DNA of 64,000 bases from an uncultured Candidatus Saccharibacteria bacterium (lineage in GTDB: Bacteria > Patescibacteriota > Minisyncoccia > Phycocordibacterales > JAKAEA01): contig CAZNZK010000005.1 of NCBI GenBank assembly GCA_964577595.1, positions 10,885 to 74,884 on the forward strand, written 5' to 3'. Below the pieces are notes generated by a model that made no database searches, was not told the origin of the DNA, and saw only the letters and a program-made list of their open reading frames with translations. Numbering within the stretch: position 1 is the stretch's first letter; the number at the start of each line of letters is the position of its first letter. Shown piece by piece: positions 21,264 through 45,570 of the stretch. A program made the translations under genes and the position numbers.

Positions 21264-21269
21264 TATAAT
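21261..21269 (+). promoter_or_regulatory. Extended -10 element (TGgTATAAT), 8 nt upstream of ATG (leaderless-type)
   Basis: TGGTATAAT, then 8 nt, then the ATG at 21278. Confidence 0.45.
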
Positions 21270-21277
21270 TTTAAGCA

Positions 21278-22579: not shown

Positions 22580-22626
22580 AAAATCAATCTATTCACATAA
22601 GTCTCGCTATCCGTTAATTACTGACT

Positions 22627-28328: not shown

Positions 28329-28411
28329 ATTGGGCGATTGTAGCACGGAAATTTTTCTGATACTATCAATCTAATTGTGATTTGCGGTCGCTCTATTGCG
28401 TACTATTTTTC

Positions 28412-29647: not shown

Positions 29648-30677
29648 ATCCGGTCGCGATGCCGGCAGTTCCCGCCAGCGCGGTTTTCTCATGGCGGAAT
29701 TTTTGAACAAAGCCGGCTTTCCGGCCGAAGTAATTGCTCCACCAGAATATCTGGCTGGCACGACGCTTTTTCAAAAATGGGGGATGCAGTGGCGCTACAC
29801 GCGGAAAATTCTCTCCATCAAAAAAACCGACACGGTTGTTTTACAAAATATCATCAGAAATATTCGCCTTATTATGCTCGTGGCCGTGCTAAAAACCTTT
29901 CGCCATCCGCGCACTATTTTTGATATTGATGACGGCAGTTATATGCGCAACCCGTGGATTGTAAAAACACTCGTGGCTCTTTCCGACAAAATTGTGGTGG
30001 CCAGCCACCGCCTTGCGGAGTGGCCGGGTTTTCAAAAGAAGCCCATTCATATTATGCCCAACCCCGTGGATGCAGAGTTGGCCGCGCGTTTTTCCGCAAA
30101 AGAAAAAGGGGGCGAAAAAAACGGAGGCGACGTAGTCGTGGGCTGGATAGGTGGCGGTCCGGGAAGTATCCCTAATTTAAAATTGCTCGTGCCAATTTTT
30201 CAGCGCTTGGTGGCGCAAAAAATTTCATTTCGTTTTCGGTTTATTGGCACGCTCGGCAACGTGCGGGTTGAGGAATTATTTTCCTCCATCCCCGGCCTCA
30301 ACGCTGAACTGGTGGAAAAAATTGATTGGGCCAAGCTCGGTGAAATTCAGAAGGCTAATGCCGTTTTTGATATTGGTGTGTGCCCGCTAGTTGATAACGA
30401 AGAGAGCCGGGTGCGCTGTAGCCTAAAAGTGCTTGATTATATGGCTGCCGGCATCCCCGTGGTTATTTCGCCGATAGGGGAGAACAATTATTTTATTAAA
30501 AACGGCGAGCAAGGTTTTTTGCCCGCAACGTTAGATGAGTGGGCCGAAAAATTAACGTTGCTTATAAAAGACGCCGCGCTTCGCCAACGCCTCGGTGCGG
30601 CTGGCCAAAAACGCGTAGCCGAAAAATTCAGCTATCAAGCGCAAGTGCCTGGTTTCGCCAATTTTATTTTCCACTAG
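29628..30677 (+). CDS. Glycosyltransferase family 1
   Basis: LDYMAAGIPVVISPIGENNYFIKNGEQGF; overlaps upstream gene by 20 nt. Confidence 0.6.
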   Translation: MIYFITKSGRDAGSSRQRGFLMAEFLNKAGFPAEVIAPPEYLAGTTLFQKWGMQWRYTRKILSIKKTDTVVLQNIIRNIRLIMLVAVLKTFRHPRTIFDIDDGSYMRNPWIVKTLVALSDKIVVASHRLAEWPGFQKKPIHIMPNPVDAELAARFSAKEKGGEKNGGDVVVGWIGGGPGSIPNLKLLVPIFQRLVAQKISFRFRFIGTLGNVRVEELFSSIPGLNAELVEKIDWAKLGEIQKANAVFDIGVCPLVDNEESRVRCSLKVLDYMAAGIPVVISPIGENNYFIKNGEQGFLPATLDEWAEKLTLLIKDAALRQRLGAAGQKRVAEKFSYQAQVPGFANFIFH

Positions 30678-30678
30678 C

Positions 30679-31032
30679 ATGCGCGTTCAAAAGGAAATTG
30701 TCGGTATTGGTACCGATATTGTGGAAATTGAGCGCCTGCGCAATGCGCGGGAATTGAAGCGCGCCGCCGATTTCTTTTTCCTACCAAGCGAATTGCGCGA
30801 TATGAAAAAAAGCCGCAACCAAGCTGAGTTTGTGGCCTCCCGCCTAGCCGCCAAAGAAGCAGTCATTAAGGCCTATCCAGGAACAATTCATTATCACGAC
30901 ATCGCCATAACCAAACGCGGCAAAAAAATCATCGCAAAATTAGTTCGTCCCGCCGACAAAAAATTTACGGTTTTTGTCAGTATTGCTCATGAAAAAAAAT
31001 ATGCACTCGGCTATGCAATTTTATGTACGTAG
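30679..31032 (+). CDS. acpS: Holo-[acyl-carrier-protein] synthase (4'-phosphopantetheinyl transferase)
   Basis: IVGIGTDIVEIERL and LAAKEAVIKA motifs; 117 aa. Confidence 0.8.
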   Translation: MRVQKEIVGIGTDIVEIERLRNARELKRAADFFFLPSELRDMKKSRNQAEFVASRLAAKEAVIKAYPGTIHYHDIAITKRGKKIIAKLVRPADKKFTVFVSIAHEKKYALGYAILCT

Positions 31033-31121
31033 GCTTGCAGAATTAAGGGTTTTTAGCTGAAGCTGTTGTGGGTAAGTCATATGTTGTTTTTTGTTATCAG
31101 TAGTTGTATAGTCGACTATGA

Positions 31122-31430
31122 ATGTTGCATATGAATTCCTTTAATCAACAATCTCGCATACCCCGGTGGCTACGCATCACTGGAACTATCCTTGAGATGA
31201 TGCTCATCTATGTCGCATGCTTCCCGTTTTCTATCGGCGTGGCAATATTCTTAGCGTGGATTGGAGGCCAACGCGGAATCTATGTGTTTGGACTTGTTCC
31301 GTTACCCGGCTTTTTTCTTGGAGGCCCTCTTGTGATTGAGTGCCTGATTTTTATTTTTCATAAACCATCAAGACAATGGTTAAGAAAGCGTTTTTCTCGT
31401 GATCCACTACCACCTCTGTCGAGTACTTAA
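31122..31430 (+). CDS. Small hypothetical membrane protein
   Basis: Three TM helices; 102 aa. Confidence 0.35.
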   Translation: MLHMNSFNQQSRIPRWLRITGTILEMMLIYVACFPFSIGVAIFLAWIGGQRGIYVFGLVPLPGFFLGGPLVIECLIFIFHKPSRQWLRKRFSRDPLPPLSST

Positions 31431-31474
31431 TTTAGTACATTGTTATTCGTTCTAGAATTGAGTATTGTTTGCCC

Positions 31475-33154
31475 ATGAACGTCTTGGAATATCTTAAAAA
31501 AGCATCTGAACATAAGAAAAGTTCACTCATAGGTGCAGAAATGCGCATCGCTATCGTCAGTAATTTTACCGACGACATTTTGGAGAAAATTTTTGTGGGT
31601 ATGTGCCTCACGGAAAACATTCAGCCCGATATTTTTCGCGTGCCATTCAAACAGTATCTTTTTCAGTTACAAGATTCAACTTCCGCTTTGGCCAAACACA
31701 AGGCCCAGGCCACATTTGTCTTCTTTGACGTTAACCCCTATTTAGAATCGGAATTCACTTCTGATCTGAATCATATTGATGAAATAATCGCCGATTTGGA
31801 GCGTTTTGCCACAGCCAGTGCGGGAAGCGTAATCCTGCACACTATCGCTTTGCCCACCAGCCTCCAGCATGGCCGACTTTTCCGCGAGCATCCGCTCCAA
31901 GCCGCAATTAACCGCTACAATTCGGCGATTAAAAAGCTTGCCGAAAAATCTTCAAATGTTTTCATTATTGAAACCGAACGTTTGGTGGCCGCAATGGGGG
32001 AGAGCAAGGCTCGCGACATGCGCGGGCTTTATGCCTTTGGCCAGCCGTTTAGTCACGAATATCTGCTTCGTGTCGCGCAGGAATGGATGGCCTACGTGCG
32101 CTCGCTCGCCGGCAAAATCCGCAAATGCATCGTGGTTGATTTGGACAACACTCTTTGGGGCGGTATTGTGGGCGAGGTGGGGCCGCTTGAAATAAAACTT
32201 GGGCCCGATTACCCGGGCAATGCCTACCGCGAATTTCAGCGCGTTTTGTTGGACTATTATAACCACGGCATTATTTTGGCCGCCAATAGTCGCAACAATG
32301 CCGCCGACGTTGACGAAGTTTTTGAGAAAAATCCGTACATGATTTTGAAAAAGTCGCATTTTGCCGCTTTTCTCACGAATTGGAAAACCAAGCCGGAAAA
32401 TTTGCGCACTATTGCCGAAGACCTCAATATCGGCCTAGATAGTATCGTTTTTCTTGATGACGACCCCGTCAACCGCGACATGGTTAAAACGCAGTTGCCC
32501 GAAGTGCTGGTACCCGATTTTTCCCTGCCGCCGGAGGAATATGCACGCACCCTTTTAGATTTGGACGCTTTTCACACCCTCAAAATGACCACCGAGGATA
32601 AAGAGCGCGGCAAAATGTACGCCGCCGAGCGCGAGCGAAAGGTTGCTGAAAAGGAAACGCAAAATCCTGAGGAGTATATAAAAACCCTCAATATAAAGAT
32701 GGATTTTTCCTGTAACGACATTGCGCTCATTCCGCGCCTCGCCCAGCTCACCCAGAAAACCAATCAGTTTAACTTGACCACCTGCCGCTCCACCGAAGCC
32801 GAGCTTACCGAGTGGATTAAGAACGGCGCGCTCATTTACGCTGGCGATATTAAAGATAAATTTGGTCCGTATGGCATCACAGTTATGGCGGCCATTAAAC
32901 CGACGAGTAAAACTGAAGCCGACCTGGCCATTTTCCTGATGAGTTGCCGCGTCTTTGGCCGGAACATAGAATTTGATTTTATGAAAAAGATTTTGGCCGA
33001 CCTCAAAGAGCGTGGCTTCAAAAAGCTAACCACTCACTTCATTCCCACCGCCAAAAACGCGCCGTCAAAGGAGTTTCTTAAGACCGCAGGTTTCAAGGAA
33101 GTTGAGCGAAAAAATTCTGGTGAAGTTGTTTGTGAAATTAATGTAAAATCTTAG
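31475..33154 (+). CDS. FkbH-like HAD-IIIC family protein (phosphatase/acyl-carrier loading enzyme)
   Basis: IVVDLDNTLWGG, ANSRNN...FAAFLTNWKTKPENL and IVFLDDDPVNRDMV match the HAD-IIIC/FkbH signature (TIGR01681/01686-like); ~560 aa as in FkbH/OzmB-type proteins. ATG at 31475 (TTG at 31469). Confidence 0.7.
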   Translation: MNVLEYLKKASEHKKSSLIGAEMRIAIVSNFTDDILEKIFVGMCLTENIQPDIFRVPFKQYLFQLQDSTSALAKHKAQATFVFFDVNPYLESEFTSDLNHIDEIIADLERFATASAGSVILHTIALPTSLQHGRLFREHPLQAAINRYNSAIKKLAEKSSNVFIIETERLVAAMGESKARDMRGLYAFGQPFSHEYLLRVAQEWMAYVRSLAGKIRKCIVVDLDNTLWGGIVGEVGPLEIKLGPDYPGNAYREFQRVLLDYYNHGIILAANSRNNAADVDEVFEKNPYMILKKSHFAAFLTNWKTKPENLRTIAEDLNIGLDSIVFLDDDPVNRDMVKTQLPEVLVPDFSLPPEEYARTLLDLDAFHTLKMTTEDKERGKMYAAERERKVAEKETQNPEEYIKTLNIKMDFSCNDIALIPRLAQLTQKTNQFNLTTCRSTEAELTEWIKNGALIYAGDIKDKFGPYGITVMAAIKPTSKTEADLAIFLMSCRVFGRNIEFDFMKKILADLKERGFKKLTTHFIPTAKNAPSKEFLKTAGFKEVERKNSGEVVCEINVKS

Positions 33155-33659
33155 AATAGTTGAATTTCTTTAATTGACCCTCAATATCAGTATATTTTTT
33201 ACCGCAGAGCATCCCTCCGGCGATAAAATCTTCCTGGGTGACTTCCGCCAAAACCCATAATGGTGCGACAAATTTCTTCTTCTCTTTGTTGGATTTGAAT
33301 TCAACATCAATTAAAATCAGACCTTGTAAATCTCCCTGAAACACATCAATCTCGTACACATATCCGTTTTCTTTATAAAGATATCGATTTTTTACAACCC
33401 TTTTTCCTTTCAGCATACTCAATTCCTTAAACTCTTCTTTGGTAAGTGGTATTGTCATTTCCAGCTGATACGAAGAATCCCCGTTCTTAATCGGCTGTTT
33501 CTTAGTCATTTCATATTTTTCACCCGATCGTCTTATTCGCAATGTGGGGTGTTTCGCTGTTGAGGGGATGTATATGTCCAACATTGCTTTGAAAGGGGCG
33601 TCTTTCAGTTTTTGTACAACTTCTTTCTTTGCCAAATATGTCAGTTCAAATTCTTCCAT
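33138..33659 (-). CDS. CYTH-like domain protein
   Basis: N-terminal ExExxY pattern and a 173-aa length consistent with the CYTH fold; weak assignment. Confidence 0.4.
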   Translation of the reverse strand: MEEFELTYLAKKEVVQKLKDAPFKAMLDIYIPSTAKHPTLRIRRSGEKYEMTKKQPIKNGDSSYQLEMTIPLTKEEFKELSMLKGKRVVKNRYLYKENGYVYEIDVFQGDLQGLILIDVEFKSNKEKKKFVAPLWVLAEVTQEDFIAGGMLCGKKYTDIEGQLKKFNYSKILH

Positions 33660-33673
33660 AGAAAAAGCATATC

Positions 33674-34324
33674 TTAAATTAGTCGCTCCGTATAGCCCTG
33701 TGCGAGCAAGTATTCATAGGCGGCCCAAACGTCACTGGGAATACTCTGCTCTATTTGAAAGCCTTTCTTGGGATATTCTTTGATGCGTTGAAGATCGCCG
33801 ACCATGGTGTTGATTACGTTATTTTTGTCCCGGCCTTCTATTGGGTAGTCGTGAAATGAAATTTGTGGTGACGTTACCAAGAGCTCAACATCGGGCAACC
33901 ATACTTTACCAGTCGCATATGTTCTGCGTTCCATATATGGTTTCTGTACCAGAATCATTCTTTTAGGCTCAATGCCGTGTTCGTGCAGTTTCTTAATGGC
34001 AAATTCATAATTTTGACCTGTGTTTTGTGATTGATTTTCAATAATGAGCGCTTCTTTTGGCACGCCTATTTTTATGGCAATATTCGCAAACACTTCAGCC
34101 TCAGTACTTCCCGCAAATTGTTCTCGGCCGGGCTTGTGGTTGTGGATGGATCCGGAACCGGCACACAACAGTACCGGTGCCCAGCCGTCTAAATAGAGTT
34201 GGGCCGCACACTCAGCGACGCGCGTATCTCTGTTGCCTAAAACAAAAATGACATCAGACTTTTTCAGCTCGTGATGCATGAGCATGTAATCCCAAATTTT
34301 TTGTGCGGCGGTGTCAGTGGTCAT
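33674..34324 (-). CDS. DUF218/YdcF (ElyC-like) family protein
   Basis: VIFVLGNRD...LLCAGSGS...IIENQSQNTGQN conserved DUF218 core; ATGA overlap with the downstream hydrolase gene. Confidence 0.6.
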   Translation of the reverse strand: MTTDTAAQKIWDYMLMHHELKKSDVIFVLGNRDTRVAECAAQLYLDGWAPVLLCAGSGSIHNHKPGREQFAGSTEAEVFANIAIKIGVPKEALIIENQSQNTGQNYEFAIKKLHEHGIEPKRMILVQKPYMERRTYATGKVWLPDVELLVTSPQISFHDYPIEGRDKNNVINTMVGDLQRIKEYPKKGFQIEQSIPSDVWAAYEYLLAQGYTERLI

Positions 34325-34920
34325 AAGTTTTGTATATCCTCCACCAATTCCGGAAGGTGCGTTTGATTAAAGTGTCCGCGATCTGTAAAAACCCATTCTT
34401 TCGCAGAAGGGAGGGCGTGTTTGTATTTTTCTAGATTCGAAAACGGGACAACGTTGTCGTCTTTACTTTGATAGATGAAAATCTTTCCGCCTTGCTTCTC
34501 TAGGCCGGCAAGCGATTGGGGAAGGCTAAAATCGGCTAGCGTGTAATCAGTTCCGGAGGTATCAAACGGGGCCGCAATCAAGAAAGTGGCCCGTATCTTT
34601 TTTGGATAGGTATTTTCAGAAAAATATTTTGCCAGGAATATGCCGCCGAGGGAATGGCCCACAAACACGACTTCTTCGTCCAAAAAGGGAATGATTTTTT
34701 CAAACCATATTTTCCACTCGCTGTATTTCGCGTTAGCTTGGTTGGGCATTTTGGGGAGAACTACCCGGAACTCGCTACCTAGTTCCTGTTCAAGGTTTTC
34801 TTTCCAGCCCCTCCGCAACATTTTACTGAAATCAATAATAAACGATTTTAGCGACGCAATATATTCTGTATAGGTATTGAAGGTGTCGCCTCCGTGAATT
34901 ATTACTACTTGTTTTTTCAT
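34321..34920 (-). CDS. Alpha/beta-fold serine hydrolase (YdeN/RBBP9-like esterase)
   Basis: VVFVGHSLGG nucleophile elbow; ~200 aa. Confidence 0.6.
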   Translation of the reverse strand: MKKQVVIIHGGDTFNTYTEYIASLKSFIIDFSKMLRRGWKENLEQELGSEFRVVLPKMPNQANAKYSEWKIWFEKIIPFLDEEVVFVGHSLGGIFLAKYFSENTYPKKIRATFLIAAPFDTSGTDYTLADFSLPQSLAGLEKQGGKIFIYQSKDDNVVPFSNLEKYKHALPSAKEWVFTDRGHFNQTHLPELVEDIQNL

Positions 34921-34985
34921 GACCAAAATATAACACGTTTTTAAGGAACTATGCAGCTAATAATATTCAATGTTATAGTAGTTCT

Positions 34986-35222
34986 ATGAGCAAATTAACT
35001 CACATTTTCTCCTCGGTTTTGGGCGTAGATGAGGCAAAAGTGGTACCGGACATGGCGCCGGCAAATACAAGCTCGTGGGATTCATTGAATGCTATTATTT
35101 TGCTGACGGAAATTGAAAAGGCATTTGAGACGCGTTTTGAATATGAAGAGGCGATGAATATTAAGAATTTTGGCGATGTGTTGAAATTGGTGGCGGGGAA
35201 GGGGAAAGATCCGCAGGCTTAA
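34986..35222 (+). CDS. DltC-like acyl/peptidyl carrier protein
   Basis: 78 aa; SSWDSLNAIILLTEIEKAF with the DSL phosphopantetheine-attachment serine; resembles D-alanyl carrier proteins. Confidence 0.7.
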   Translation: MSKLTHIFSSVLGVDEAKVVPDMAPANTSSWDSLNAIILLTEIEKAFETRFEYEEAMNIKNFGDVLKLVAGKGKDPQA

Positions 35223-35296
35223 AAATATGCCTATCATTGGCCCAAAAATTGGTGACAGCACAGAATAGCGTGAAGATTCTGAAAATCTCATAAGAA

Positions 35297-36757
35297 ATGA
35301 AACACATCCATACTGACACGCTGATTATTGGTGCGGGGCCAGCCGGCCTGGCGGCGGCCATAAAATTAGCCGAGGCCGGTAAAGATTTCGTTATTATTGA
35401 AAAGAGTGATATGGTCGGCGGTTTGGCAAAAACTCGCACGTTTGTCGAGGGCGATGACGTTTTTCTAACCGATCAGGGTCCGCATCGTTTTTTTTCAAAA
35501 AATCCCGAGCTCTATCATTTCATTGAAGACCTCTTGCAGGAGCGTTGGATTAAGGTGAAGCGTTATACTCGCCAGTATATTGCCGGCAAGTTCTACGACT
35601 ATCCGCTCAAGCCGTTTCAGGCTTTAAAAAATATCGGCCCATGGAAGGCGGCCGGTATGCTCTACGATTACGCCGTGGCGACGGTACGCTACAAACTACT
35701 TGGCCGTCCACTCGCAACTTTTGCCGATTATGTGTATGCAAATTTTGGAAAATCGCTTGGTAAATTTTGCATGATAAATTACACCGAGAAAATTTGGGGA
35801 TTGCCCGCCGAAAAAATTCACCCTGACTGGGCATCCCAGCGTCTTAAGGGTCTCAGTGTTTATGGCCTTCTGAAAGACTTTTTAAGAATTTCGCGAAAAA
35901 AGGACGGCCCCAAATCGCTCATTGACACTTTTTATTATCCTGAACGGGGTGCTGGTGAGGTGTATGAAGCTATTCAAAAAAAGCTGGAGGCCCTTGGGTA
36001 TACAGTGCTAACAAAAACGCAACCAACAAAAATATTCCACGAGAATAATAAAATCACCGCTGCCCTCTGCCAGTCGCCCGAGGGCGAAATACGCTTCACA
36101 TTCAATCATCTTATAGAGTCGGTACCCATAAAAAATTTTGTTACTCTTTTTGAAAAAACGGCCGTACGTCACGTATCCGAAAGTATGCGAAATCTCTCGT
36201 ACCGCCACCAGGTATACCTATTCATAACGCTCAATAAGCCCAAGGTTACCGACGATCAGTGGATCTATTTCCCCGAAACACATATTCCGATAGGTCGGAT
36301 GAGTGAGATGAAAAATTTTAGCCAAGCTATGGCTCCAGCCGATAAAACTTCTCTTTTTTTGGAATTTTTTTGCTCAACCAATGATGCTGTTTGGAAGATG
36401 GGCCCAACTGAGGTTTTTGAACTGGCCGTTCCCTGGCTTGAGCAAATGGGGTTTGTTACCCGCACGGAAGTGAGGCGCTCATATGTTTTCAAAGAAGAGA
36501 ATGTGTATCCAGTATACGACCTGGGTTATAAGAAACACCTGGAAGAAATTAAGAATTTTTTAAACAAATTTAACAATCTCTTATATGTCGGCCGACCGGG
36601 CCGTTTTAAGTATAATAATCAGGACCATTCTCTGGAAATGGGTTTCTTGGCGGCCCAAAGTATTATTGATGGGCATCCTTACGACATTGAAGCGGTTGGT
36701 GAGGATAAAAAACATTATGAGTCGGGAACAATATATGACAAAAGAACAACGCATTGA
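35297..36757 (+). CDS. FAD-dependent oxidoreductase (amine-oxidase-like fold)
   Basis: LIIGAGPAGLAAAIKLAEAGKDFVIIEKSDMVGGLA dinucleotide-binding motif. Confidence 0.6.
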   Translation: MKHIHTDTLIIGAGPAGLAAAIKLAEAGKDFVIIEKSDMVGGLAKTRTFVEGDDVFLTDQGPHRFFSKNPELYHFIEDLLQERWIKVKRYTRQYIAGKFYDYPLKPFQALKNIGPWKAAGMLYDYAVATVRYKLLGRPLATFADYVYANFGKSLGKFCMINYTEKIWGLPAEKIHPDWASQRLKGLSVYGLLKDFLRISRKKDGPKSLIDTFYYPERGAGEVYEAIQKKLEALGYTVLTKTQPTKIFHENNKITAALCQSPEGEIRFTFNHLIESVPIKNFVTLFEKTAVRHVSESMRNLSYRHQVYLFITLNKPKVTDDQWIYFPETHIPIGRMSEMKNFSQAMAPADKTSLFLEFFCSTNDAVWKMGPTEVFELAVPWLEQMGFVTRTEVRRSYVFKEENVYPVYDLGYKKHLEEIKNFLNKFNNLLYVGRPGRFKYNNQDHSLEMGFLAAQSIIDGHPYDIEAVGEDKKHYESGTIYDKRTTH

Positions 36758-38093
36758 GTTTTGGTATGGCGCGGCTATTGTAGTGCTCGCATGTGTCTAT
36801 ATTTTCTGCTGGTTCTGTACAATCTATCTTGCTACCGGCCGAGAACAGCAACAAAGCGGTAGCGGTTTACTTGTCTTGGAAGTCAATGGCGACAGCCGCC
36901 AATACGTGGCCTTGGCCCACTCGCTCCTCACGAGCCATACATTTCCTGCGACCAACCACTCGCCAACACCGTTCGTGCCGGAAACATTCCGTGTACCGGG
37001 GTACCCTCTTTTTGTTGCCATTTTCTCATTATTTGGAAAAGTTTTTTTTGTCACCACTCTCGTCCAAATCATCCTGGCTTTCTGTACGGCTTTTTTAATA
37101 CGTCGATTGGGTTGTTTTTTCTTTTCCGACACTGTTGGTTGTGTCGCCGCTGTTCTCTTTCTTCTTGACCCTACAACCCTACTTCTCTCGCTTGCACTAT
37201 TGTCTGACATGTTATTTGTATTTCTGTTCATTGCTGGCTTCTATTTGCTTGTCAGTAGACTCCATAAAAAACCGCTTTTGGTAACAGTATCTGCTGGCCT
37301 CATTTTTTCCTACGCGGTGTGTGTGCGGCCGGTTGGCTTATTTGCCTTACCGATTTTTTTCGCGCCAGTGTTTATAAGCAAGGCTTCTTTGCGGCATAAA
37401 ATATATTCCGCTATAGGCATATTGGTCATTATTACTGCTGCTGTCGCGCCATGGATGTGGCGCAACTATAAAGAAGCTGGCGCGTTCACGTTCAGTTCTC
37501 TTCCTGCCTACAACATTGCCAAATACAATATTCCAATTTTTCTGGCAACACGGGGAGTAACGGCCGAAGAGAGCCGGGCTCTTGTTGAAAAAAAATCTGG
37601 CGTTTCTCCTGATCGTTGGCGCGATGTGGAAGCGTCGGCGGCTCTTAATAAGGCATCAAGGAACATTCTCGGGCATCAATTGCTTTCCTATGTGGTTTTT
37701 CATATAGAAGGCTCCGTTATCGCCAGCCTCTCTTCCTCGTTAAATACATTCATCAGTACCTATAACACTATTGTTCCAATTTCCATCGATACATCTCCCA
37801 TAAAACTTTCTGATCTTTTAATCAGCTGGAAACAAAGCGTGTTTATTTTTGGCCACTTTTGGTGGCGTTTTGTCGAGGGGTTTATGTGGGCAGGCGCATT
37901 TGCCTGCGCTGGGGTAGCCTTTTGGATACATCGTCGATATCTCTTTTCGTGGGCGTTTGTTCTTATCGTCGTATATATCTTATTACTTATTGGTCCGGTT
38001 GTTGATGTGCGCTATCGCACGCCCGCTGTCCCTTTCATATTCCTTATGGCGGTCGCGGGTGCCGGCTGGCTTAGGAAACGTTTGTTCGATTGA
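36717..38093 (+). CDS. GT-C family membrane glycosyltransferase (ArnT/PMT, COG1807-like)
   Basis: N-terminal D..Y...A...PGYPLF loop pattern of GT39/83 enzymes; ~11 TM. Start 36717 or 36735; the ORF-track extension to 36585 overlaps the previous gene. Confidence 0.5.
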   Translation: MSREQYMTKEQRIEFWYGAAIVVLACVYIFCWFCTIYLATGREQQQSGSGLLVLEVNGDSRQYVALAHSLLTSHTFPATNHSPTPFVPETFRVPGYPLFVAIFSLFGKVFFVTTLVQIILAFCTAFLIRRLGCFFFSDTVGCVAAVLFLLDPTTLLLSLALLSDMLFVFLFIAGFYLLVSRLHKKPLLVTVSAGLIFSYAVCVRPVGLFALPIFFAPVFISKASLRHKIYSAIGILVIITAAVAPWMWRNYKEAGAFTFSSLPAYNIAKYNIPIFLATRGVTAEESRALVEKKSGVSPDRWRDVEASAALNKASRNILGHQLLSYVVFHIEGSVIASLSSSLNTFISTYNTIVPISIDTSPIKLSDLLISWKQSVFIFGHFWWRFVEGFMWAGAFACAGVAFWIHRRYLFSWAFVLIVVYILLLIGPVVDVRYRTPAVPFIFLMAVAGAGWLRKRLFD

Positions 38094-38131
38094 TTTCTCT
38101 CATAAAAAAGTGTTTAATGGAGGTGCTTTGT

Positions 38132-38542
38132 ATGTCTAAAATCGGCGCAAAAATTGGTGATAGTGCAGAATTTTCTGTCGAAGTTACTGCCGATATGGTG
38201 GACGCTTTTGCGAAGCTTTCGGGGGATATGAACGCTTTGCATATGGATGAAAAGTTTGCGCAGAGCAAGAAATTTGAAGGCCGAGTGGCGCATGGCATGC
38301 TTGGTGCCAGCTTTTTCTCGCGGCTGGTGGGCATGCATTTGCCGGGGAAAAATTCACTCTATCTTTCACAGTCACTTTTTTTTCGCCGGCCTATATATAT
38401 AGGAATGAAGGTGACCGTAAAAGGTGTAGTGATGCAAACGACGACAGCGACGCGGACGGTCAAAATAAAAACGGAGATACTTAATAGCGCCAATGCGGAG
38501 TGCTTGCTGGACGGCGAGGCGCTTGTTAAAGTGCTGGAATAG
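38132..38542 (+). CDS. MaoC-like (R)-specific dehydratase, hotdog fold
   Basis: FAKLSGDMNALHMDEKFA and RVAHGMLGASF motifs; strong GGAGG RBS 9 nt upstream. Confidence 0.7.
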   Translation: MSKIGAKIGDSAEFSVEVTADMVDAFAKLSGDMNALHMDEKFAQSKKFEGRVAHGMLGASFFSRLVGMHLPGKNSLYLSQSLFFRRPIYIGMKVTVKGVVMQTTTATRTVKIKTEILNSANAECLLDGEALVKVLE

Positions 38543-38562
38543 CTACTCTCACTCTGGCCGCG

Positions 38563-40044
38563 ATGCTCTTTAACTCCTTTTCCTTCCTTATATTTTTCCC
38601 GATAGTGGTAGTGCTTTACTACAGCATTCCGCGGCGGTTCCGAGTGTATTTTTTGTTGCTTGCGAGCTGTATTTTCTATATGGCTTTTGTGCCGTGGTAT
38701 ATCCTTATTTTGTTCTTTCTTATCGGTATTGATTTTTTCCTCGGGCAGGCCATTGAAAAGCGCACGGGCCATGCGCGGCGGGTATTGCTTGTAGTGAGTG
38801 TTATTTCCAACCTCGGTACGCTTTTTGTTTTTAAATATTTGAATTTTTTTGATGCAAATATTGCAGCGTTGGCGCATGCGTTGCATTGGAATTATTCCTT
38901 GCCGCTTTTGTCGCTGGTGGTGCCGCTTGGCCTTTCATTCCACGTGTTCCAGAGCTTGAGTTATGTGATTGAGGTTTACAGGGGCAAGTGGAAAGCGGAG
39001 CGGAACTTTTTCGTGTATGCGCTCTACGTGATGTTCTTTCCGCAATTGGTGGCGGGCCCTATTGAGCGGCCGCAACATCTTTTGCCGCAGTTTCGGGCGG
39101 AACACCAGTGGCGCGACGAAAATGCAATTACTGGCTTGGAGCGTATGCTCTGGGGATTTTTCAAGAAGATGGTGATTGCGGATAACTTAGCACCGATTGT
39201 TGATCATATTTTTGGCACGGTGCCACATAATGGGCCGGTACTTATTTTGGGAGTAGTGCTCTTTACCTATCAGCTTTACTGCGATTTCTCGGGCTATTCG
39301 GACATTGCCGTGGGCACGGCGCGAGTTTTGGGTTTTGAAATTATGGAAAACTTTAATAGGCCGTTTGCGGCGCGCTCCATTGCAGACTTTTGGCGGCGCT
39401 GGCACATTTCGCTTTCAAGCTGGCTTCGCGATTATTTATTTACCCCGCTTTTGTGGCTGTGGCGCGGTGCCGGGCAACTAGGTTTTTATGCGAGTTTGCT
39501 GGTAACATTCACGCTTATTGGCCTGTGGCATGGTGCGAACTGGACGTATGTGGTTTTCGGCGCATTGCATGGAGCATATATGGTGATTGGCGCGGCGACG
39601 CAAAAATGGCGCAACCGTTTTGCGGAACTTATTGGCCTGGTGCGGCTTCCGCGCCTTCGCGCGGCTTTGCAAACGCTGACGGTATTTGCGCTGGTATGTT
39701 TCAGTACGCTCTTTTTCCGGGCTGACACTATTGGCCAAGCATTCACTATGCTCGCACATATGGCCGATCATTTAGCGCAGGCGTTTAGCGTGAGTTTTTG
39801 GTGGCGGGAGGCGCCGGGCTTAATGGGGCTTTCGGCCCGCGGGGCAAAGGTGTATTTGTTTCTACTCATTTTAGCTATTATCGGCATGGAGGTTCTGCAG
39901 TATTTTCAGGAAAAGAAGGCGACGCTTTTAGTGTGGGCAAAATGGCCGAGCTGGGGGCGCATCAGCTGGCGCTATGCGGCGCTGGCGGCCATTGTCTTTT
40001 TCGGCTACCTGGGTGCGACGCCGTTTATCTATTTTAAGTTTTAG
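38563..40044 (+). CDS. MBOAT family membrane-bound O-acyltransferase (DltB/AlgI-like)
   Basis: FWRRWHISLSSWLRDYLF conserved-His motif; ~11 TM; 493 aa. Confidence 0.8.
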   Translation: MLFNSFSFLIFFPIVVVLYYSIPRRFRVYFLLLASCIFYMAFVPWYILILFFLIGIDFFLGQAIEKRTGHARRVLLVVSVISNLGTLFVFKYLNFFDANIAALAHALHWNYSLPLLSLVVPLGLSFHVFQSLSYVIEVYRGKWKAERNFFVYALYVMFFPQLVAGPIERPQHLLPQFRAEHQWRDENAITGLERMLWGFFKKMVIADNLAPIVDHIFGTVPHNGPVLILGVVLFTYQLYCDFSGYSDIAVGTARVLGFEIMENFNRPFAARSIADFWRRWHISLSSWLRDYLFTPLLWLWRGAGQLGFYASLLVTFTLIGLWHGANWTYVVFGALHGAYMVIGAATQKWRNRFAELIGLVRLPRLRAALQTLTVFALVCFSTLFFRADTIGQAFTMLAHMADHLAQAFSVSFWWREAPGLMGLSARGAKVYLFLLILAIIGMEVLQYFQEKKATLLVWAKWPSWGRISWRYAALAAIVFFGYLGATPFIYFKF

Positions 40045-40070
40045 TTTAAATTCTGATTATTTTTATTACC

Positions 40071-41213
40071 ATGTGGAAATTCCTGCTCAAATTTATTCTC
40101 TATATAGGCGTGCCGGTGGTGCTGGTGCTGGCGTTTCCACTCTATGTATATTGGCAGGCGCGTGAGTTCACGAGCGTGCATGACGCCATTACCACCCAGG
40201 CCGCTTCCAGCTCAGCGCTTTTTGGCATTGGCTACGACTATGCCAGCCGGGCATATAAAGAGGCGATGCTTGCCGAGAAGCCGGCCGATGTGGTAATTCT
40301 CGGCTCGTCGCGCGTGCTTGAGTTGCACCAACTGTTTTTTGCCTCGTCTACCAGGTTGGTGAATGCTGGCCTCGGACTGCCCGACATGTCTCGTTTGCCG
40401 GCTCTGCTTAATGACCACCCGGCAGGAAGCGAGCCGAAAGTGATTTTATTGGGAATTGACCCGTGGATGTTTAAGCCGGGGGAGGAAACGGTCAATATTC
40501 CCCAACAGGTGACGCTTGGTGACAGGCTCTGGGCTTTTGTGAGTGGCGCCTGGCGCACGGTGTATTCCGACTATTTTCTTTTCCATAAATTTGGCTTGGG
40601 CCAACTTGCCGCCGCCAGAAGCACGTCGTCTTCTATTGGCATTAATGCGCTTATTAACGATGAAGGATTTATGGCCGATGGCAGTGAACTCTATGGCCGA
40701 CGGGGCGAGCTTGAGAATTATGTGAATGTTGTGGCGCCGCAGGCTATAGAGCAAATGCGGGCATCGGTTGCCAGCGACCGGGCCGATTTTGATTTTGGTA
40801 CGAGCACGTCGGCGGCAAGCCTTCGCGAGTTAAATATCTTTTTGGCCACTGCCGAGGCGCGCGGCATTCATGTTGTTGGTTTTATTACGCCGTATCCACA
40901 TGCGGTTTTCCAGCAATTAATGAGCGTGCATGATAGTTATGCGCAAGAGGCGGTGCTTTTGCCAGCCGTGCTCAATGCGTTTTTCACTCATTACAATTTT
41001 CCATTCTTTAATTATATGGATGCGGCCAGCGCCGGCATTCCAGATAGCGAATTTTTGGACTTTCAGCACGTCACCGACAAAGGCGCTTTGCGGATACTTA
41101 TTGCTATGGCGCAAGGCGACAGCACGTTACGCGCATACGTTTCCCTGCCGAATTTAAAATCGCTCTTAGCTCACACCCCCGACGCTTTTATTGATCCAGC
41201 CGATTTAAAGTGA
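40071..41213 (+). CDS. DltD-like SGNH-type protein partner of MBOAT
   Basis: N-terminal anchor, VVILGSSRVLEL (DltD LGSSE-like) and C-terminal DFQHVTDKG (DxxH). Confidence 0.55.
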   Translation: MWKFLLKFILYIGVPVVLVLAFPLYVYWQAREFTSVHDAITTQAASSSALFGIGYDYASRAYKEAMLAEKPADVVILGSSRVLELHQLFFASSTRLVNAGLGLPDMSRLPALLNDHPAGSEPKVILLGIDPWMFKPGEETVNIPQQVTLGDRLWAFVSGAWRTVYSDYFLFHKFGLGQLAAARSTSSSIGINALINDEGFMADGSELYGRRGELENYVNVVAPQAIEQMRASVASDRADFDFGTSTSAASLRELNIFLATAEARGIHVVGFITPYPHAVFQQLMSVHDSYAQEAVLLPAVLNAFFTHYNFPFFNYMDAASAGIPDSEFLDFQHVTDKGALRILIAMAQGDSTLRAYVSLPNLKSLLAHTPDAFIDPADLK

Positions 41214-42163
41214 GTGGCAATGCTACGAATAATAGCGTCTAAGGATGTTTTTGGTTTCCAGCCGGTTAAAGCTTGGATGCGGGCGGTGTCGGGCACTCGC
41301 CGCGTCATATCTTCAAAACCTGGCCCGTAGGCTTCTCCATAGGGAACGGTAATAATTTTTGAGCGGCTCTTGAGTTGTTTTTTTATCCGTAACGCCAATT
41401 CCATTATGGTAATTTCTTCCTGACTGCCAATGTTATAGAGCGTGCCAATCGCGTCTGTTTTAGTTAACAGACTTTTAAGAGCTTTTACGACGTCGTTGAC
41501 GTCACAAAAACAGCGCGACTGTGTGCCGTCGCCATACACCGTAATGTCCTCGTTTTTAAGGGCTTGAGAGATGAAACGTGGCATCACCATGCCATATTGG
41601 CCGCTTTGGCGTGGTCCGACAGTATTGAAAAGCCGTACCAAAATAACGGGTAAATCGTACTGGTGGTGATAGGCTAGGGCGAGAAACTCATCAACCATTT
41701 TAGTGGCGGCGTAGGCCCAGCGGGATTTATTAGTGGTGCCCAAAACAACATCATCTTTTTCATTGTAGGGGATGCGGGTGCTTTTTCCATAGACTTCAGA
41801 GGTGCTGGCGACTAAAGTTTTACAGCGATAGCGCAGAGCTGTTTTGAGAACCGCTTCAGTGCCCATGATATTTGTTTCAATAGTGTGTACTGGCTGGTCA
41901 ACGATAAGCTTGACGCCAACAGCCGCGGCTAAGTGGATAACAGTATCAACTTGGCTCATAAGGCGATCCAACACGGTTTCGTTACGGATATCGGCAATGG
42001 CATAACTGAAATTCTTGTTGGAAATGAGGTGCGCGATATTGCGCATACTGCCAGTGGAAAGATTGTCTATGATGGAAACGGCGATGCCGTCCTTTAAAAG
42101 CGATTCGGCCAGATGGCTGCCGATAAAACCGGCGCCACCCGTAATGAGAATTTTTTTAGGCAT
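41171..42163 (-). CDS. NAD-dependent epimerase/dehydratase (SDR, UDP-sugar decarboxylase/epimerase-like)
   Basis: ILITGGAGFIGSHL and YAATK motifs; ATG at 42163. Confidence 0.7.
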   Translation of the reverse strand: MPKKILITGGAGFIGSHLAESLLKDGIAVSIIDNLSTGSMRNIAHLISNKNFSYAIADIRNETVLDRLMSQVDTVIHLAAAVGVKLIVDQPVHTIETNIMGTEAVLKTALRYRCKTLVASTSEVYGKSTRIPYNEKDDVVLGTTNKSRWAYAATKMVDEFLALAYHHQYDLPVILVRLFNTVGPRQSGQYGMVMPRFISQALKNEDITVYGDGTQSRCFCDVNDVVKALKSLLTKTDAIGTLYNIGSQEEITIMELALRIKKQLKSRSKIITVPYGEAYGPGFEDMTRRVPDTARIQALTGWKPKTSLDAIIRSIATHFKSAGSIKASGV

Positions 42164-43106: not shown

Positions 43107-43107
43107 T

Positions 43108-45565: not shown

Positions 45566-45570
45566 GTTTT

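What the first reader, a model, noticed from the sequence alone, without database searches (positions are those of the whole stretch)
30679..41213. Dlt-like MBOAT surface-acylation system in which an FkbH-type loader replaces the DltA adenylase
Seen in sequence: within ~10 kb on the plus strand lie AcpS, an FkbH-like HAD-IIIC protein, a 78-aa DltC-like carrier protein (DSL serine), a DltB/AlgI-type MBOAT (FWRRWH His motif) and a DltD-like SGNH partner (LGSS, DxxH).

Established knowledge: canonical Dlt uses DltA (an adenylation enzyme) to load D-Ala onto DltC, and DltB/DltD then transfer it to teichoic acids. FkbH enzymes instead load a glyceryl unit from 1,3-bisphosphoglycerate onto a dedicated ACP.

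Inference: no adenylation-domain gene is present here, so the carrier is probably charged by FkbH with a glyceryl (or derived) acyl group. The MBOAT/DltD pair would then export it onto a cell-surface glycopolymer. The locus adjoins glycosyltransferases and the Wzm/Wzt exporter, consistent with a glycopolymer target. I do not recognise this FkbH-with-Dlt-like arrangement as a described system.
Basis: partly seen in the sequence, partly recalled or inferred. Interest (0 to 1): 0.88.

Follow-up and report, generated by a model that had tools for sequence, protein, structure and literature searches.

The report
Carrier-protein-fed surface sugar acylation cassette
A tiny uncultured (Patescibacteria-type) bacterium carries a gene cassette that probably takes a three-carbon acid straight from glycolysis, loads it on a small carrier protein and passes it through a membrane enzyme pair onto a cell-surface sugar polymer. 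Only D-alanylation of teichoic acids is known to use a carrier protein in this way.

Summary
The observed genes are real: AcpS, an FkbH-type loader (TIGR01686, 282 bits), a 78-aa carrier protein, an MBOAT and a membrane-anchored SGNH protein. They sit in a 50-kb glycan locus with a Wzm/Wzt exporter, and the window has no adenylation enzyme.

- A MaoC dehydratase lies just upstream of the MBOAT and is a conserved cassette member.
- The MBOAT ends in FIYFKF, the FxYxxF acyl-shuttle tyrosine motif of PatA-type MBOATs, so no separate DltX is needed.

All six close FkbH relatives I looked up carry AcpS–FkbH–ACP–MaoC(±KR)–MBOAT–SGNH. Among 80 metagenomic FkbH loci, MaoC and MBOAT co-occur strongly (odds ratio 34, p = 6e-6).

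Best reading: FkbH loads glyceryl onto the ACP, MaoC converts it to pyruvoyl (lactyl where a KR is present), and the acyl group passes MBOAT His323, Tyr490 and SGNH Ser80 to an exported glycopolymer.

Main caveat: 48–59% identical MBOAT/SGNH pairs exist without FkbH or ACP, so a plain acyl-CoA O-acetylation pair is not excluded. The held papers describe no such system. I rate it a new variant of a known kind.

The parts
30679..31032 (+). AcpS-type 4'-phosphopantetheinyl transferase (117 aa), dedicated to the cassette ACP
   Evidence: PF01648 E = 2e-10; TIGR00556 57.5 bits above cutoff 45.35. It lies immediately upstream of FkbH in L003, L008, L009, L010, L094 and L095. Among 80 FkbH loci it is enriched where MaoC or MBOAT is present (p = 6e-7).
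31475..33154 (+). FkbH-type loader (559 aa from the ATG; 561 aa from the TTG at 31469). It has FkbH_N, HAD-IIIC phosphatase and C-terminal Cys-bearing transferase domains.
   Evidence: TIGR01686 281.9 bits against cutoff 146.65. PDB 3slr (BF1531) E = 7e-46. D224/D226/T228 (DLDNT), D330/D331 and C493 (MSCRV) are invariant in 13 homologues.
34986..35222 (+). Dedicated 78-aa acyl carrier protein; phosphopantetheine site Ser33 in WDSL
   Evidence: PF00550 23.6 bits against cutoff 20.8. It is 55-83% identical to the ACPs that follow FkbH in L003 and L008-L010. W31 and S33 are 100% conserved in 67 ACPs. An ACP follows FkbH in 75 of 80 metagenome loci.
38117..38542 (+). MaoC-type (R)-specific hydratase/dehydratase (141 aa; 150 aa from the TTG at 38090). 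Proposed to dehydrate glyceryl-ACP.
   Evidence: PF01575 64.9 bits. The hydratase-2 motif SGDMNALH has Asp and His 100% conserved in 19 orthologues. It is present between ACP and MBOAT in all six looked-up relatives. It co-occurs with MBOAT at odds ratio 34, p = 6e-6.
38563..40044 (+). MBOAT (493 aa) with catalytic His323 (= DltB His336), His281 (= DltB His289) and the C-terminal acyl-shuttle motif FIYFKF (Tyr490)
   Evidence: PF03062 E = 2.4e-27. DltB structures 6bug and 8jem at E about 1e-26. FxYxxF at the C-terminus. The role of the motif is taken from PMC12148441. The start codon is 21 nt after the MaoC stop.
40071..41213 (+). N-terminally membrane-anchored SGNH-fold partner (380 aa), remotely DltD-like. 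Predicted triad Ser80, Asp330, His333.
33138..34920 (-). Three minus-strand genes inserted between FkbH and ACP: CYTH (33138-33659), DUF218 (33674-34324) and alpha/beta-hydrolase (34321-34920). Not part of the conserved cassette.
   Evidence: Pfam results. They are absent from the 59-83% identical compact operon in L003.
35297..38093 (+). FAD-dependent UGM/amine-oxidase-like oxidoreductase (35297-36757) and GT-C/PMT_2-like membrane protein (36717-38093), inserted between ACP and MaoC. Probably a separate extracytoplasmic glycosylation step.
   Evidence: NF005548 407 bits against cutoff 389. PMT_2 21.1 bits, below cutoff. Absent from L003.
28382..30677 (+). Two GT4/GT1-type glycosyltransferases directly upstream of AcpS (context: glycopolymer synthesis)
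   Evidence: Pfam. They are syntenic and 63-69% identical in L003.
41171..46398 (-). Convergent glycan genes: extended-SDR sugar epimerase/dehydratase, GT2, a further GT, Wzt (ABC ATPase with Wzt_C) and Wzm (ABC-2 permease)
   Evidence: Pfam. Wzt and Wzm are 82-83% identical and syntenic in L003.
46500..48980 (+). 826-aa Wzy_C (O-antigen-ligase-like) membrane protein with C-terminal TPR repeats. Candidate polymer ligase or polymerase for the same glycopolymer.
   Evidence: PF04932 68.3 bits plus TPR families. Syntenic in L003.

Best explanation
This is a carrier-protein-dependent MBOAT-SGNH system for acylating an exported cell-surface glycopolymer in a Patescibacteria-type bacterium.

Proposed steps:
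1. AcpS converts the dedicated 78-aa ACP to its holo form (inferred).
2. The FkbH-type enzyme takes 1,3-bisphosphoglycerate and removes the 3-phosphate with its HAD domain. It captures the already activated acyl group on Cys493 and passes glyceryl to the ACP. No ATP-dependent adenylation is needed (inferred from what is established for characterised FkbH enzymes).
3. The conserved MaoC dehydratase eliminates the 3-hydroxyl, giving enolpyruvoyl and then pyruvoyl-ACP. In relatives that also carry an SDR ketoreductase this would be reduced to lactyl-ACP, the same FkbH + DH + KR logic as lactate-starter loading modules of trans-AT polyketide synthases. This is the least certain step.
4. The acyl-phosphopantetheine arm enters the MBOAT from the cytoplasm. 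His323 catalyses transfer to Tyr490 of the C-terminal FIYFKF shuttle motif on the outer face (by analogy with PatA and DltB/DltX).
5. Ser80 of the membrane-anchored SGNH partner takes the acyl group and esterifies a hydroxyl of the glycopolymer. That polymer is made by the surrounding glycosyltransferases and exported by Wzm/Wzt.

Shown here: the domain identities, the conserved catalytic residues, the absence of an adenylation enzyme and the conserved gene linkage. Inferred: the substrate, the final acyl group, the ACP-to-MBOAT hand-off and the target polymer.
For: Domains and residues.

Conserved cassette:
- All six close FkbH homologues looked up (44-59% identity; two of these loci are from assemblies labelled Sungbacteria and Magasanikbacteria and one protein is named Paceibacterota) carry AcpS-FkbH-ACP-MaoC(+/-KR) next to an MBOAT. 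In five of the six the MBOAT is adjacent to the last tailoring gene on the same strand, with gaps of 3-36 nt; in L010 it lies just upstream of AcpS.
- In L003, L009, L011 and L094 the operon holds no other acyltransferase that could consume the acyl-ACP.

Metagenome survey of 80 FkbH loci:
- MaoC and MBOAT co-occur 8/5/3/64, odds ratio 34, p = 6e-6.
- The MBOAT is directly adjacent to a cassette gene in 10 of 12 loci despite shuffled gene orders. This holds across four divergent MBOAT lineages that are only 26-39% identical to each other.

Split architecture in L010:
- The MBOAT is short (393 aa, no C-terminal motif).
- A 53-aa membrane microprotein ending PFIYTLF (Pfam DUF5989, E = 5.6e-20) lies between FkbH and ACP. 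This mirrors DltX and ties the shuttle component physically into the FkbH-ACP unit.

Replaceable output module: in a Clostridia MAG (L002) the same FkbH-ACP-MaoC-KR block is followed by a GNAT next to FdtA and DegT amino-sugar genes. The block therefore behaves as an acyl-donor module with interchangeable consumers.

Precedent: DltB, the closest solved structure, uses a carrier-protein thioester. PatA uses the same phosphopantetheine arm on CoA (PMC12148441).

Host: RNase J is 66-71% identical to its closest named relatives, all Parcubacteria-group, and the nearest named FkbH homologues are also Patescibacteria. This fits a self-contained AcpS and ACP pair.
Against: - MBOAT/SGNH pairs 48-59% identical to the window's occur in glycan loci with no FkbH, ACP, MaoC or AcpS within 7-9 kb (L091, L092). 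In a neighbour-joining tree they nest among the FkbH-linked ones. No sequence signature for ACP use was found.
- The MBOAT has the fused FxYxxF motif typical of acyl-CoA-using PatA/AlgI-type enzymes.
- In this window the cassette is broken by five unrelated genes, three of them on the opposite strand.
- No ketoreductase is present here, so the product would be an alpha-keto (pyruvoyl) thioester. Pyruvoyl esters on glycans are not, to my knowledge, documented.
- The co-occurrence test is not corrected for relatedness of loci. It relies on home-made HMMs and on contigs that are often truncated.
- The SGNH model has only moderate confidence (pLDDT 71.5).
- There is no biochemical evidence for any step.
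Confidence: 0.6

Rival explanations
1. Two independent systems share one glycan locus. The MBOAT/SGNH pair is an ordinary acyl-CoA-dependent O-acetyltransferase of the PatA/PatB or AlgI/AlgJ type. The FkbH-ACP-MaoC module supplies a C3 acyl group to some other, cytoplasmic acyltransferase, for example one that N-acylates an amino sugar.
For: - Close MBOAT/SGNH homologues (48-59% identity) occur without FkbH or ACP and are not a separate clade.
- The MBOAT carries the fused FxYxxF motif described for acyl-CoA users, and the literature states that non-Dlt MBOAT/SGNH systems lack carrier proteins.
- Most FkbH-ACP loci (64 of 80) have neither MaoC nor MBOAT and sit beside other transferases such as Antibiotic_NAT, hexapeptide transferases and sulfotransferases.
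- L002 uses a GNAT.
Against: - The minimal operons (L003, L009, L011, L094) contain no alternative acyltransferase.
- MBOAT is about 14 times more frequent in MaoC-positive than in MaoC-negative FkbH loci, although all of them are glycan loci.
- Adjacency persists through rearrangements and across four MBOAT lineages.
- A DltX-like microprotein gene sits between FkbH and ACP in L010.
Confidence: 0.2
2. FkbH-loaded glyceryl-ACP is the direct donor, glycerate esters are placed on the polymer, and MaoC plays no part in the acyl chemistry (for example it acts as a hot-dog thioesterase or editing enzyme).
For: - Characterised FkbH enzymes produce glyceryl-S-carrier protein from 1,3-bisphosphoglycerate (statement in PMC13122637).
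- Three MBOAT-linked loci (L024, L039, L090) lack MaoC.
- Glycerate esters on polysaccharides exist, for example in gellan (my own knowledge).
Against: - MaoC is present in the window and in all six close relatives, placed between ACP and MBOAT. Its hydratase-2 Asp and His are 100% conserved.
- MaoC is the gene most tightly correlated with MBOAT.
- An SDR ketoreductase follows MaoC in L002, L008, L010, L011, L012, L016, L041, L043 and L095. A ketoreductase only makes sense if MaoC generates a keto group.
Confidence: 0.15
3. The FkbH-ACP genes belong to a secondary-metabolite pathway, either a hydroxymalonyl/methoxymalonyl-ACP extender unit or a tetronate/butenolide route, and are unrelated to the glycan.
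For: Nearly all papers in the held library that mention FkbH concern polyketide or non-ribosomal peptide pathways.
Against: - No ketosynthase, acyl-CoA-dehydrogenase-like FkbI, 3-hydroxyacyl-CoA-dehydrogenase-like FkbK, FabH-like tetronate enzyme, or NRPS/PKS gene is present in the 64-kb window.
- The neighbours of FkbH are glycan genes in the window, in all six relatives and in most of the 80 metagenome loci.
Confidence: 0.02

Closest known systems
Dlt pathway (DltA, DltC, DltB, DltX, DltD) for D-alanylation of teichoic acids
   Same: - The donor is a thioester on a small dedicated carrier protein (inferred here).
- The membrane component is an MBOAT whose closest solved structure is DltB (E = 4e-26), with both conserved histidines.
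- There is an FxYxxF tyrosine shuttle motif.
- The partner is an N-terminally anchored extracytoplasmic SGNH protein with a DltD-like fold.
- The target is a cell-envelope glycopolymer exported by an ABC transporter in a bacterial group usually described as lacking an outer membrane (own knowledge, not tested here).
   Different: - There is no adenylation enzyme. Loading is by an FkbH-type HAD-phosphatase/transferase from an acyl phosphate of glycolysis.
- The acyl group is a neutral C3 hydroxy or keto acid, not a cationic amino acid.
- An extra on-carrier tailoring step is present (MaoC, with or without KR).
- The shuttle motif is fused to the MBOAT in the window, although it is split in relative L010.
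- The curated DltB, DltC and DltD family thresholds are not met.
PatA/PatB, AlgI/AlgJ/AlgX and WssH/WssI type MBOAT-SGNH O-acetyltransferases
   Same: - The MBOAT is about 490 aa with a fused C-terminal FIYxxF motif and the invariant histidine.
- The SGNH partner is a separate protein.
- The pair is embedded in a polysaccharide locus.
- Homologues of the window's pair occur without any carrier protein (L091, L092).
   Different: According to PMC12148441 those systems use acyl-CoA and have no carrier protein. Here an AcpS-FkbH-ACP-MaoC block is co-operonic with the MBOAT and statistically linked to it.
FkbH-type glyceryl-carrier loaders of natural-product pathways, including FkbH + DH + KR lactate-starter loading modules of trans-AT PKSs
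   Same: - The FkbH domain matches TIGR01686 with the HAD motif and the conserved cysteine.
- A dedicated carrier protein is present.
- A dehydratase, and in relatives a ketoreductase, acts after loading. BiGMeC lists FkbH as 1,3-BPG + ACP giving D-lactate-ACP (PMC7901079).
   Different: - All proteins are stand-alone.
- The dehydratase is MaoC/hot-dog type and not a PKS DH domain.
- There is no ketosynthase or assembly line.
- The predicted consumer is a membrane acyltransferase acting on a glycan.
Campylobacter jejuni flagellin glycosylation locus gene cj1302 (FkbH domain) and Bacteroides fragilis BF1531 (PDB 3slr)
   Same: These are FkbH-like proteins in glycan or glycoprotein loci and not in PKS clusters (PMC7099621).
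   Different: Neither has been functionally characterised in the held literature, and no MBOAT link is reported for either. BF1531 is 387 aa in the crystallised N-terminal part only.

Membership tests
Dlt D-alanylation system | DltA: an ATP-dependent adenylation (AMP-binding) enzyme that loads the carrier | tested here: not met
   No AMP-binding Pfam hit in the 50 window ORFs scanned. PROSITE PS00455 has zero matches in six frames. The rest of the genome was not available.
Dlt D-alanylation system | DltC-family carrier protein | tested here: not met
   It is a generic PP-binding domain (23.6 bits against 20.8). NCBIfam hits are only AcpP-type models below cutoff, with no DltC model listed at E <= 0.01. 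The carrier-protein function itself is supported by the WDS serine, 100% conserved.
Dlt D-alanylation system | DltB equivalog (TIGR04091) | tested here: not met
   170.5 bits against a curated cutoff of 375. It is homologous to DltB structures at E about 1e-26, with His289 and His336 equivalents conserved.
Dlt D-alanylation system | DltD family (PF04914) SGNH protein | tested here: not met
Dlt D-alanylation system | Separate DltX microprotein carrying the FxYxxF tyrosine | tested here: not met
   In the window the motif (FIYFKF) is fused to the MBOAT C-terminus. A separate microprotein with the motif does exist in relative L010.
Bacterial MBOAT-SGNH polymer acyltransferase pairs (PatA/PatB type) | MBOAT with the invariant catalytic histidine | tested here: met
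   PF03062 96.6 bits. His323 aligns with DltB His336.
Bacterial MBOAT-SGNH polymer acyltransferase pairs (PatA/PatB type) | C-terminal FxYxxF acyl-shuttle motif | tested here: met
   The protein ends ...PFIYFKF (Tyr490). The same motif ends 15 of the 16 MBOATs compared. The motif definition is from PMC12148441.
Bacterial MBOAT-SGNH polymer acyltransferase pairs (PatA/PatB type) | Adjacent SGNH-fold partner with Ser/Asp/His, anchored outside the membrane | tested here: met
Bacterial MBOAT-SGNH polymer acyltransferase pairs (PatA/PatB type) | Acyl-CoA donor and no carrier protein in the pathway | not testable with these tools
   A carrier protein, its PPTase and its loader are co-operonic and statistically linked. 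Which donor the MBOAT accepts needs biochemistry.
FkbH-type glyceryl-carrier-protein loaders | FkbH domain model TIGR01686 above the curated cutoff | tested here: met
   281.9 bits against 146.65, covering residues 217-543.
FkbH-type glyceryl-carrier-protein loaders | HAD phosphatase motif I (DxDxT) and the conserved C-terminal cysteine | tested here: met
   D224-L-D226-N-T228 and M491-S-C493-R are invariant in 13 sequences, including a 29%-identical Clostridia homologue. The role of the cysteine as acyl-enzyme site is from my own knowledge of OzmB-type enzymes.
FkbH-type glyceryl-carrier-protein loaders | Dedicated carrier protein encoded alongside | tested here: met
   An ACP is found in 75 of 80 metagenome loci, nearly always directly downstream of FkbH, and downstream in all close relatives. 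In the window it lies 1.8 kb downstream because of an insertion.
FkbH-type glyceryl-carrier-protein loaders | Uses 1,3-bisphosphoglycerate to form glyceryl-S-carrier | not testable with these tools
   Inference from characterised family members (PMC13122637; PMC7901079).
FkbH + DH + KR route to lactyl-carrier (trans-AT PKS loading modules) | Dehydratase and ketoreductase acting on the FkbH-loaded carrier | tested here: inconclusive
   A MaoC-type dehydratase is present with its catalytic Asp and His. There is no ketoreductase in the window cassette. An SDR ketoreductase follows MaoC in L002, L008, L010, L011, L012, L016, L041, L043 and L095.

The most novel reading that the evidence does not exclude
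Bacteria, prominently the ultra-small Patescibacteria, possess a second carrier-protein-dependent MBOAT-SGNH pathway besides Dlt. It esterifies exported surface glycopolymers with a C3 acid (pyruvoyl, lactyl or glyceryl) drawn directly from the glycolytic intermediate 1,3-bisphosphoglycerate, without ATP-dependent activation.

The pathway would be one output of a wider modular platform for supplying acyl groups to glycans:
- A core of FkbH and ACP, with or without AcpS.
- Interchangeable tailoring: MaoC with or without a ketoreductase, a VOC/glyoxalase-like protein, or a methyltransferase.
- Interchangeable consumers: MBOAT plus SGNH outside the cell, or a GNAT inside it.
Probability: 0.5. Interest if true: 0.8.

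Novelty: new variant of a known kind. Interest (0 to 1): 0.72.

Why it matters
MBOAT-SGNH pairs are the general bacterial solution for acylating polymers outside the membrane. The current view (PMC12148441) is that only Dlt uses a carrier protein and all other pairs use acyl-CoA.

A conserved FkbH-ACP-MaoC block wired to such pairs would be a second carrier-protein-fed system. It would have a different loading chemistry (acyl phosphate instead of acyl adenylate) and a different class of acyl group.

Three open questions would become testable:
- What determines donor choice (CoA against carrier protein) in bacterial MBOATs.
- What the many FkbH-like 'HAD-IIIC phosphatases' annotated in glycan loci actually do.
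- How Patescibacteria decorate their envelope. These organisms are generally thought to lack fatty-acid synthesis and to live attached to host cells.

The work also suggests that Pfam DUF5989 microproteins are DltX-like acyl shuttles.

Tried and rejected
- **Genome-contig scan:** The cross-genome survey had to rely on metagenome contigs.
- **Partner-family alignment A2:** it was too divergent to seed a metagenome scan.
- **Word-indexed homology search for the 380-aa protein:** only 3 hits. The exhaustive profile search was needed to show that the family is large.
- **Sequence searches of the partner against PDB:** single sequence and 39-sequence profile both found nothing. Only fold comparison and a transitive profile link reach DltD.
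- **Literature:** FkbH+MBOAT, FkbH+DltB, FkbH+polysaccharide and FkbH-like/HAD-IIIC searches found no description of the system. Several broader searches were uninformative. I could not retrieve a primary paper for the DH-KR-FkbH lactate starter, so that precedent rests on my own knowledge and on one software table.
- **Promoter and terminator scan:** counts did not exceed those of shuffled sequence.
- **A distinct clade for FkbH-linked MBOATs:** rejected. Unlinked MBOATs nest among them.
- **Methoxymalonyl or tetronate pathway:** rejected for lack of FkbI, FkbK, FkbG or ketosynthase genes.
- **The 102-aa hydrophobic ORF at 31122-31430 as a DltX-like component:** rejected. It lacks the FxYxxF ending, was not called in the source contig and is absent from L003.
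- **LPS O-antigen as target:** considered unlikely because the marker gene points to Patescibacteria. GT9 'heptosyltransferase-family' genes are nevertheless present.

Full report
**1. What is in the window**

The window comes from an ENA metagenome contig (ERZ27245386, k141_311605, 83 kb). ORF listing and HMM scans give the following genes on the + strand:
- AcpS, 30679-31032 (PF01648; TIGR00556 above cutoff).
- An FkbH-type protein, 31475-33154 (TIGR01686 281.9 bits against cutoff 146.65).
- A 78-aa carrier protein, 34986-35222 (PF00550 above cutoff).
- A FAD oxidoreductase, 35297-36757.
- A GT-C/PMT_2-like membrane protein, 36717-38093.
- A MaoC dehydratase, 38117-38542.
- An MBOAT, 38563-40044.
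- A 380-aa protein with no family hit, 40071-41213.

Three minus-strand genes (CYTH, DUF218, alpha/beta-hydrolase; 33138-34920) lie between FkbH and the ACP.

The surroundings are a very large glycan locus:
- Many GT4/GT1, GT2 and GT9 glycosyltransferases.
- FkbM-type methyltransferases, a polysaccharide deacetylase and a sugar dehydrogenase.
- Wzm/Wzt and a Wzy_C-TPR protein.

No AMP-binding enzyme was found by Pfam in 50 ORFs, and the PROSITE AMP-binding pattern has no match in any frame.

**2. The host**

RNase J at the end of the window is 66-71% identical to its closest named homologues. These are named Zambryskibacteria, Taylorbacteria, Paceibacterota and Parcubacteria. The best named FkbH homologues (45-54% identity) are also Patescibacteria. 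The organism is therefore most likely a Parcubacteria-group member of the Candidate Phyla Radiation.

To my knowledge such organisms have no outer membrane and usually lack fatty-acid synthesis. That would explain why the cassette brings its own AcpS, and it makes a cell-wall-type glycopolymer the likely target rather than LPS. This is an inference.

**3. The individual parts**

*FkbH.* The HAD motif DLDNT, D330/D331 and the MSCRV cysteine are invariant across 13 homologues down to 29% identity. The only solved relative is the uncharacterised Bacteroides fragilis BF1531 (3slr, E = 7e-46).

*ACP.* W31-D32-S33 is conserved in 67 FkbH-linked ACPs (W and S 100%, D 93%). The protein looks like a generic AcpP and not like DltC.

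*MaoC.* The hydratase-2 motif is intact (SGDMNALH), with Asp and His 100% conserved in 19 orthologues.

*MBOAT.*
- It aligns to the DltB structures at E about 1e-26.
- His281 and His323 correspond to DltB His289 and His336.
- It scores far below the DltB equivalog cutoff, 170.5 against 375.
- Its last six residues are FIYFKF.

A 2025 study of PatA/PatB (PMC12148441) shows that bacterial MBOAT-SGNH systems pass the acyl group through an invariant tyrosine in a C-terminal FxYxxF motif. In Dlt that motif sits on the microprotein DltX. The same study states that the other MBOAT/SGNH pathways lack a carrier protein because they use acyl-CoA. The window's MBOAT is thus architecturally of the PatA type.

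*The 380-aa partner.*
- The word-indexed search found only three relatives. An exhaustive profile search found 3321 cluster representatives, 1005 of them at E <= 1e-30. None of ten members scanned has a Pfam domain.
- G78, S80 and H333 are invariant and D330 is nearly so.
- Other FkbH-linked cassettes carry a second partner family of about 310 aa. One member passes the Pfam DltD threshold (L061, 35.8 bits against 22.7).
- That second family aligns to the window's family by hhalign at 93.4% probability and E = 2.5e-7, with the GSS serine motifs in register.

'DltD-like' is therefore justified at superfamily level only.

**4. Is the linkage real?**

*Close relatives.* A relative whose cassette proteins are 59-83% identical (L003, on a 633-kb contig) has the compact operon AcpS-FkbH-ACP-MaoC-MBOAT-SGNH, with the same flanking GTs, Wzt/Wzm and Wzy_C-TPR. 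The five extra genes in the window are therefore insertions.

Five further FkbH homologues (44-50% identical) all show AcpS-FkbH-ACP-MaoC next to an MBOAT and a partner:
- With an SDR ketoreductase: L008, L010 and L095.
- Without one: L009 and L094.

L008 (protein named Paceibacterota), L009 (Sungbacteria assembly), L010 (Magasanikbacteria assembly) and two unnamed contigs make up these five. That is 6 of 6 looked up.

*Metagenome survey.* A scan seeded with an FkbH alignment gave 80 more loci at 32-46% identity. I annotated them with HMMs built from the cassette proteins.
- An ACP was found in 75 of 80, nearly always directly after FkbH.
- MaoC and MBOAT co-occur 8/5/3/64 (Fisher odds ratio 34, p = 6e-6).
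- AcpS is enriched in the same loci (p = 6e-7).
- The MBOAT touches a cassette gene in 10 of 12 loci, although the gene order is shuffled.
- The MBOATs involved fall into four lineages only 26-39% identical to each other.

The FkbH-ACP loci without MBOAT are also glycan loci, with sulfotransferases, deacetylases, GT2, DegT, aminoglycoside-type N-acetyltransferases and hexapeptide transferases. The enrichment is therefore not simply 'glycan locus against non-glycan locus'.

**5. Two informative variants**

*L010.* The MBOAT is short (393 aa) and lacks the C-terminal motif. A 53-aa membrane microprotein ending PFIYTLF (Pfam DUF5989, E = 5.6e-20) lies between FkbH and ACP. A second, weaker one follows the ketoreductase. 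This is the split DltB + DltX architecture, with the shuttle gene embedded in the FkbH-ACP unit.

*L002.* In this Clostridia MAG, FkbH-ACP-MaoC-KR is followed by a GNAT and preceded by FdtA and DegT. That suggests cytoplasmic N-acylation of a 3-amino sugar. The FkbH-ACP-MaoC(-KR) block thus behaves as an acyl-donor module with exchangeable consumers, and in the window the only candidate consumer is the MBOAT.

**6. The acyl group**

Characterised FkbH enzymes load glycerate derived from 1,3-bisphosphoglycerate (as stated in PMC13122637). A (3R)-hydroxyacyl dehydratase acting on 2,3-dihydroxypropanoyl-ACP would give enolpyruvoyl and then pyruvoyl-ACP. A ketoreductase would make lactyl-ACP.

This matches the FkbH + DH + KR loading logic for lactate starters in trans-AT PKSs. 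That precedent rests on my own knowledge; one software table lists FkbH as '1,3-bpg + ACP -> D-lactate-ACP' (PMC7901079).

The window has MaoC but no ketoreductase, so I predict pyruvoyl here and lactyl in the KR-bearing relatives. This is the weakest step.

**7. Counter-evidence**

MBOAT/partner pairs 48-59% identical to the window's occur in polysaccharide loci with no FkbH, ACP, MaoC or AcpS within 7-9 kb (L091, L092). They nest among the FkbH-linked MBOATs in a distance tree.

Either donor choice switches easily or the window's pair is an ordinary O-acetyltransferase. Easy switching is plausible because CoA and holo-ACP present the same phosphopantetheine arm.

I weigh the conserved, rearrangement-resistant adjacency, the lack of any other consumer and the L010 microprotein as outweighing this. 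It keeps my confidence near 0.6.

**8. Comparison and novelty**

The system works like Dlt: carrier thioester, then MBOAT, then Tyr shuttle, then SGNH, then polymer. It fails the DltA, DltB, DltC and DltD membership tests.

It meets the structural tests for PatA/PatB-type MBOAT-SGNH pairs. It differs from them in having a co-operonic carrier protein, PPTase, loader and tailoring enzyme.

Searches of the held literature found no description of the arrangement. I classify it as a new variant of a known kind.

Noticed in passing
L010 10737-10898 (+) and L010 about 12209-12382 (+): Two uncalled microprotein ORFs with one transmembrane stretch and a C-terminal FIYxxF motif. The first matches Pfam DUF5989 (E = 5.6e-20). 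DUF5989 may be a DltX-like acyl-shuttle family that serves short MBOATs lacking the fused motif.
   Followed up: partly
L002 3068-8705 (Clostridia MAG CAMWQV010000044.1): The genes FdtA, DegT, FkbH, ACP, MaoC, SDR and GNAT lie in a row. This looks like a cytoplasmic route that N-acylates a 3-amino-3,6-dideoxy sugar with the same C3 acyl-ACP.
   Followed up: partly
L014 11951-12355; L027 2338-2742; L016 7691-8101; L039 11903-12319: A different cassette variant has a VOC/glyoxalase-family protein of about 135 aa in place of MaoC, in the order FkbH-ACP-VOC-AcpS. It may act as an epimerase on the loaded acyl group, like methylmalonyl-CoA epimerase. Only the L014 and L027 proteins are confirmed as Glyoxalase_4 (one search matched 5 members); the L016 and L039 ORFs are inferred from size and position. 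L016 and L039 also carry an MBOAT and a DltD-like partner.
   Followed up: partly
L016 1916-2851 (-) and L024 3394-4329 (-): A conserved 311-aa protein with a SAM-methyltransferase-like motif, judged by eye and not scanned against Pfam (61% identical between the two loci), sits inside the FkbH/ACP/MBOAT cassettes. It might O-methylate the glyceryl unit.
   Followed up: no
window 33138-34920 (-): CYTH, DUF218 and an alpha/beta (Ser_hydrolase-type) hydrolase are inserted on the opposite strand between FkbH and its ACP. They are absent from the close relative L003. The hydrolase could be an editing thioesterase, but nothing supports that.
   Followed up: partly
window 35297-38093 (+): A FAD-dependent oxidoreductase with UDP-galactopyranose-mutase-like segments (NF005548, 407 bits) overlaps a GT-C/PMT_2-like membrane protein. 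The pair is inserted between ACP and MaoC and may add a sugar outside the membrane.
   Followed up: no
window 31122-31430 (+): A 102-aa very hydrophobic ORF lies in the 440-nt gap between AcpS and FkbH. It has no family hit, was not called in the source contig and is not conserved in L003. It is probably not a gene.
   Followed up: partly
window 17948-23967 (+): Five consecutive ORFs (553, 276, 239, 433 and 446 aa) have no Pfam hit. They lie in a stretch of lower G+C (0.42-0.45 against about 0.50) in the middle of the glycan locus.
   Followed up: no
window 25734-28346 (-): An 870-aa GMC-oxidoreductase-like protein (GMC_oxred_C 88 bits) has a long extra C-terminal part of about 330 aa. It sits next to an Amidase_3/PG_binding_1 protein (24429-25706).
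   Followed up: no
window 13834-14892 and 16685-17863 (+); also L003 and L092: GT9 'heptosyltransferase-family' genes occur in an organism that is probably a Patescibacterium and so should lack LPS. Their acceptor is unclear.
   Followed up: no
L011-L090: Most FkbH-ACP pairs in metagenomes sit in glycan loci next to sulfotransferases, polysaccharide deacetylases, aminoglycoside-type N-acetyltransferases or hexapeptide transferases, not in PKS clusters. The family's main role may be glycan decoration and is largely uncharacterised.
   Followed up: partly
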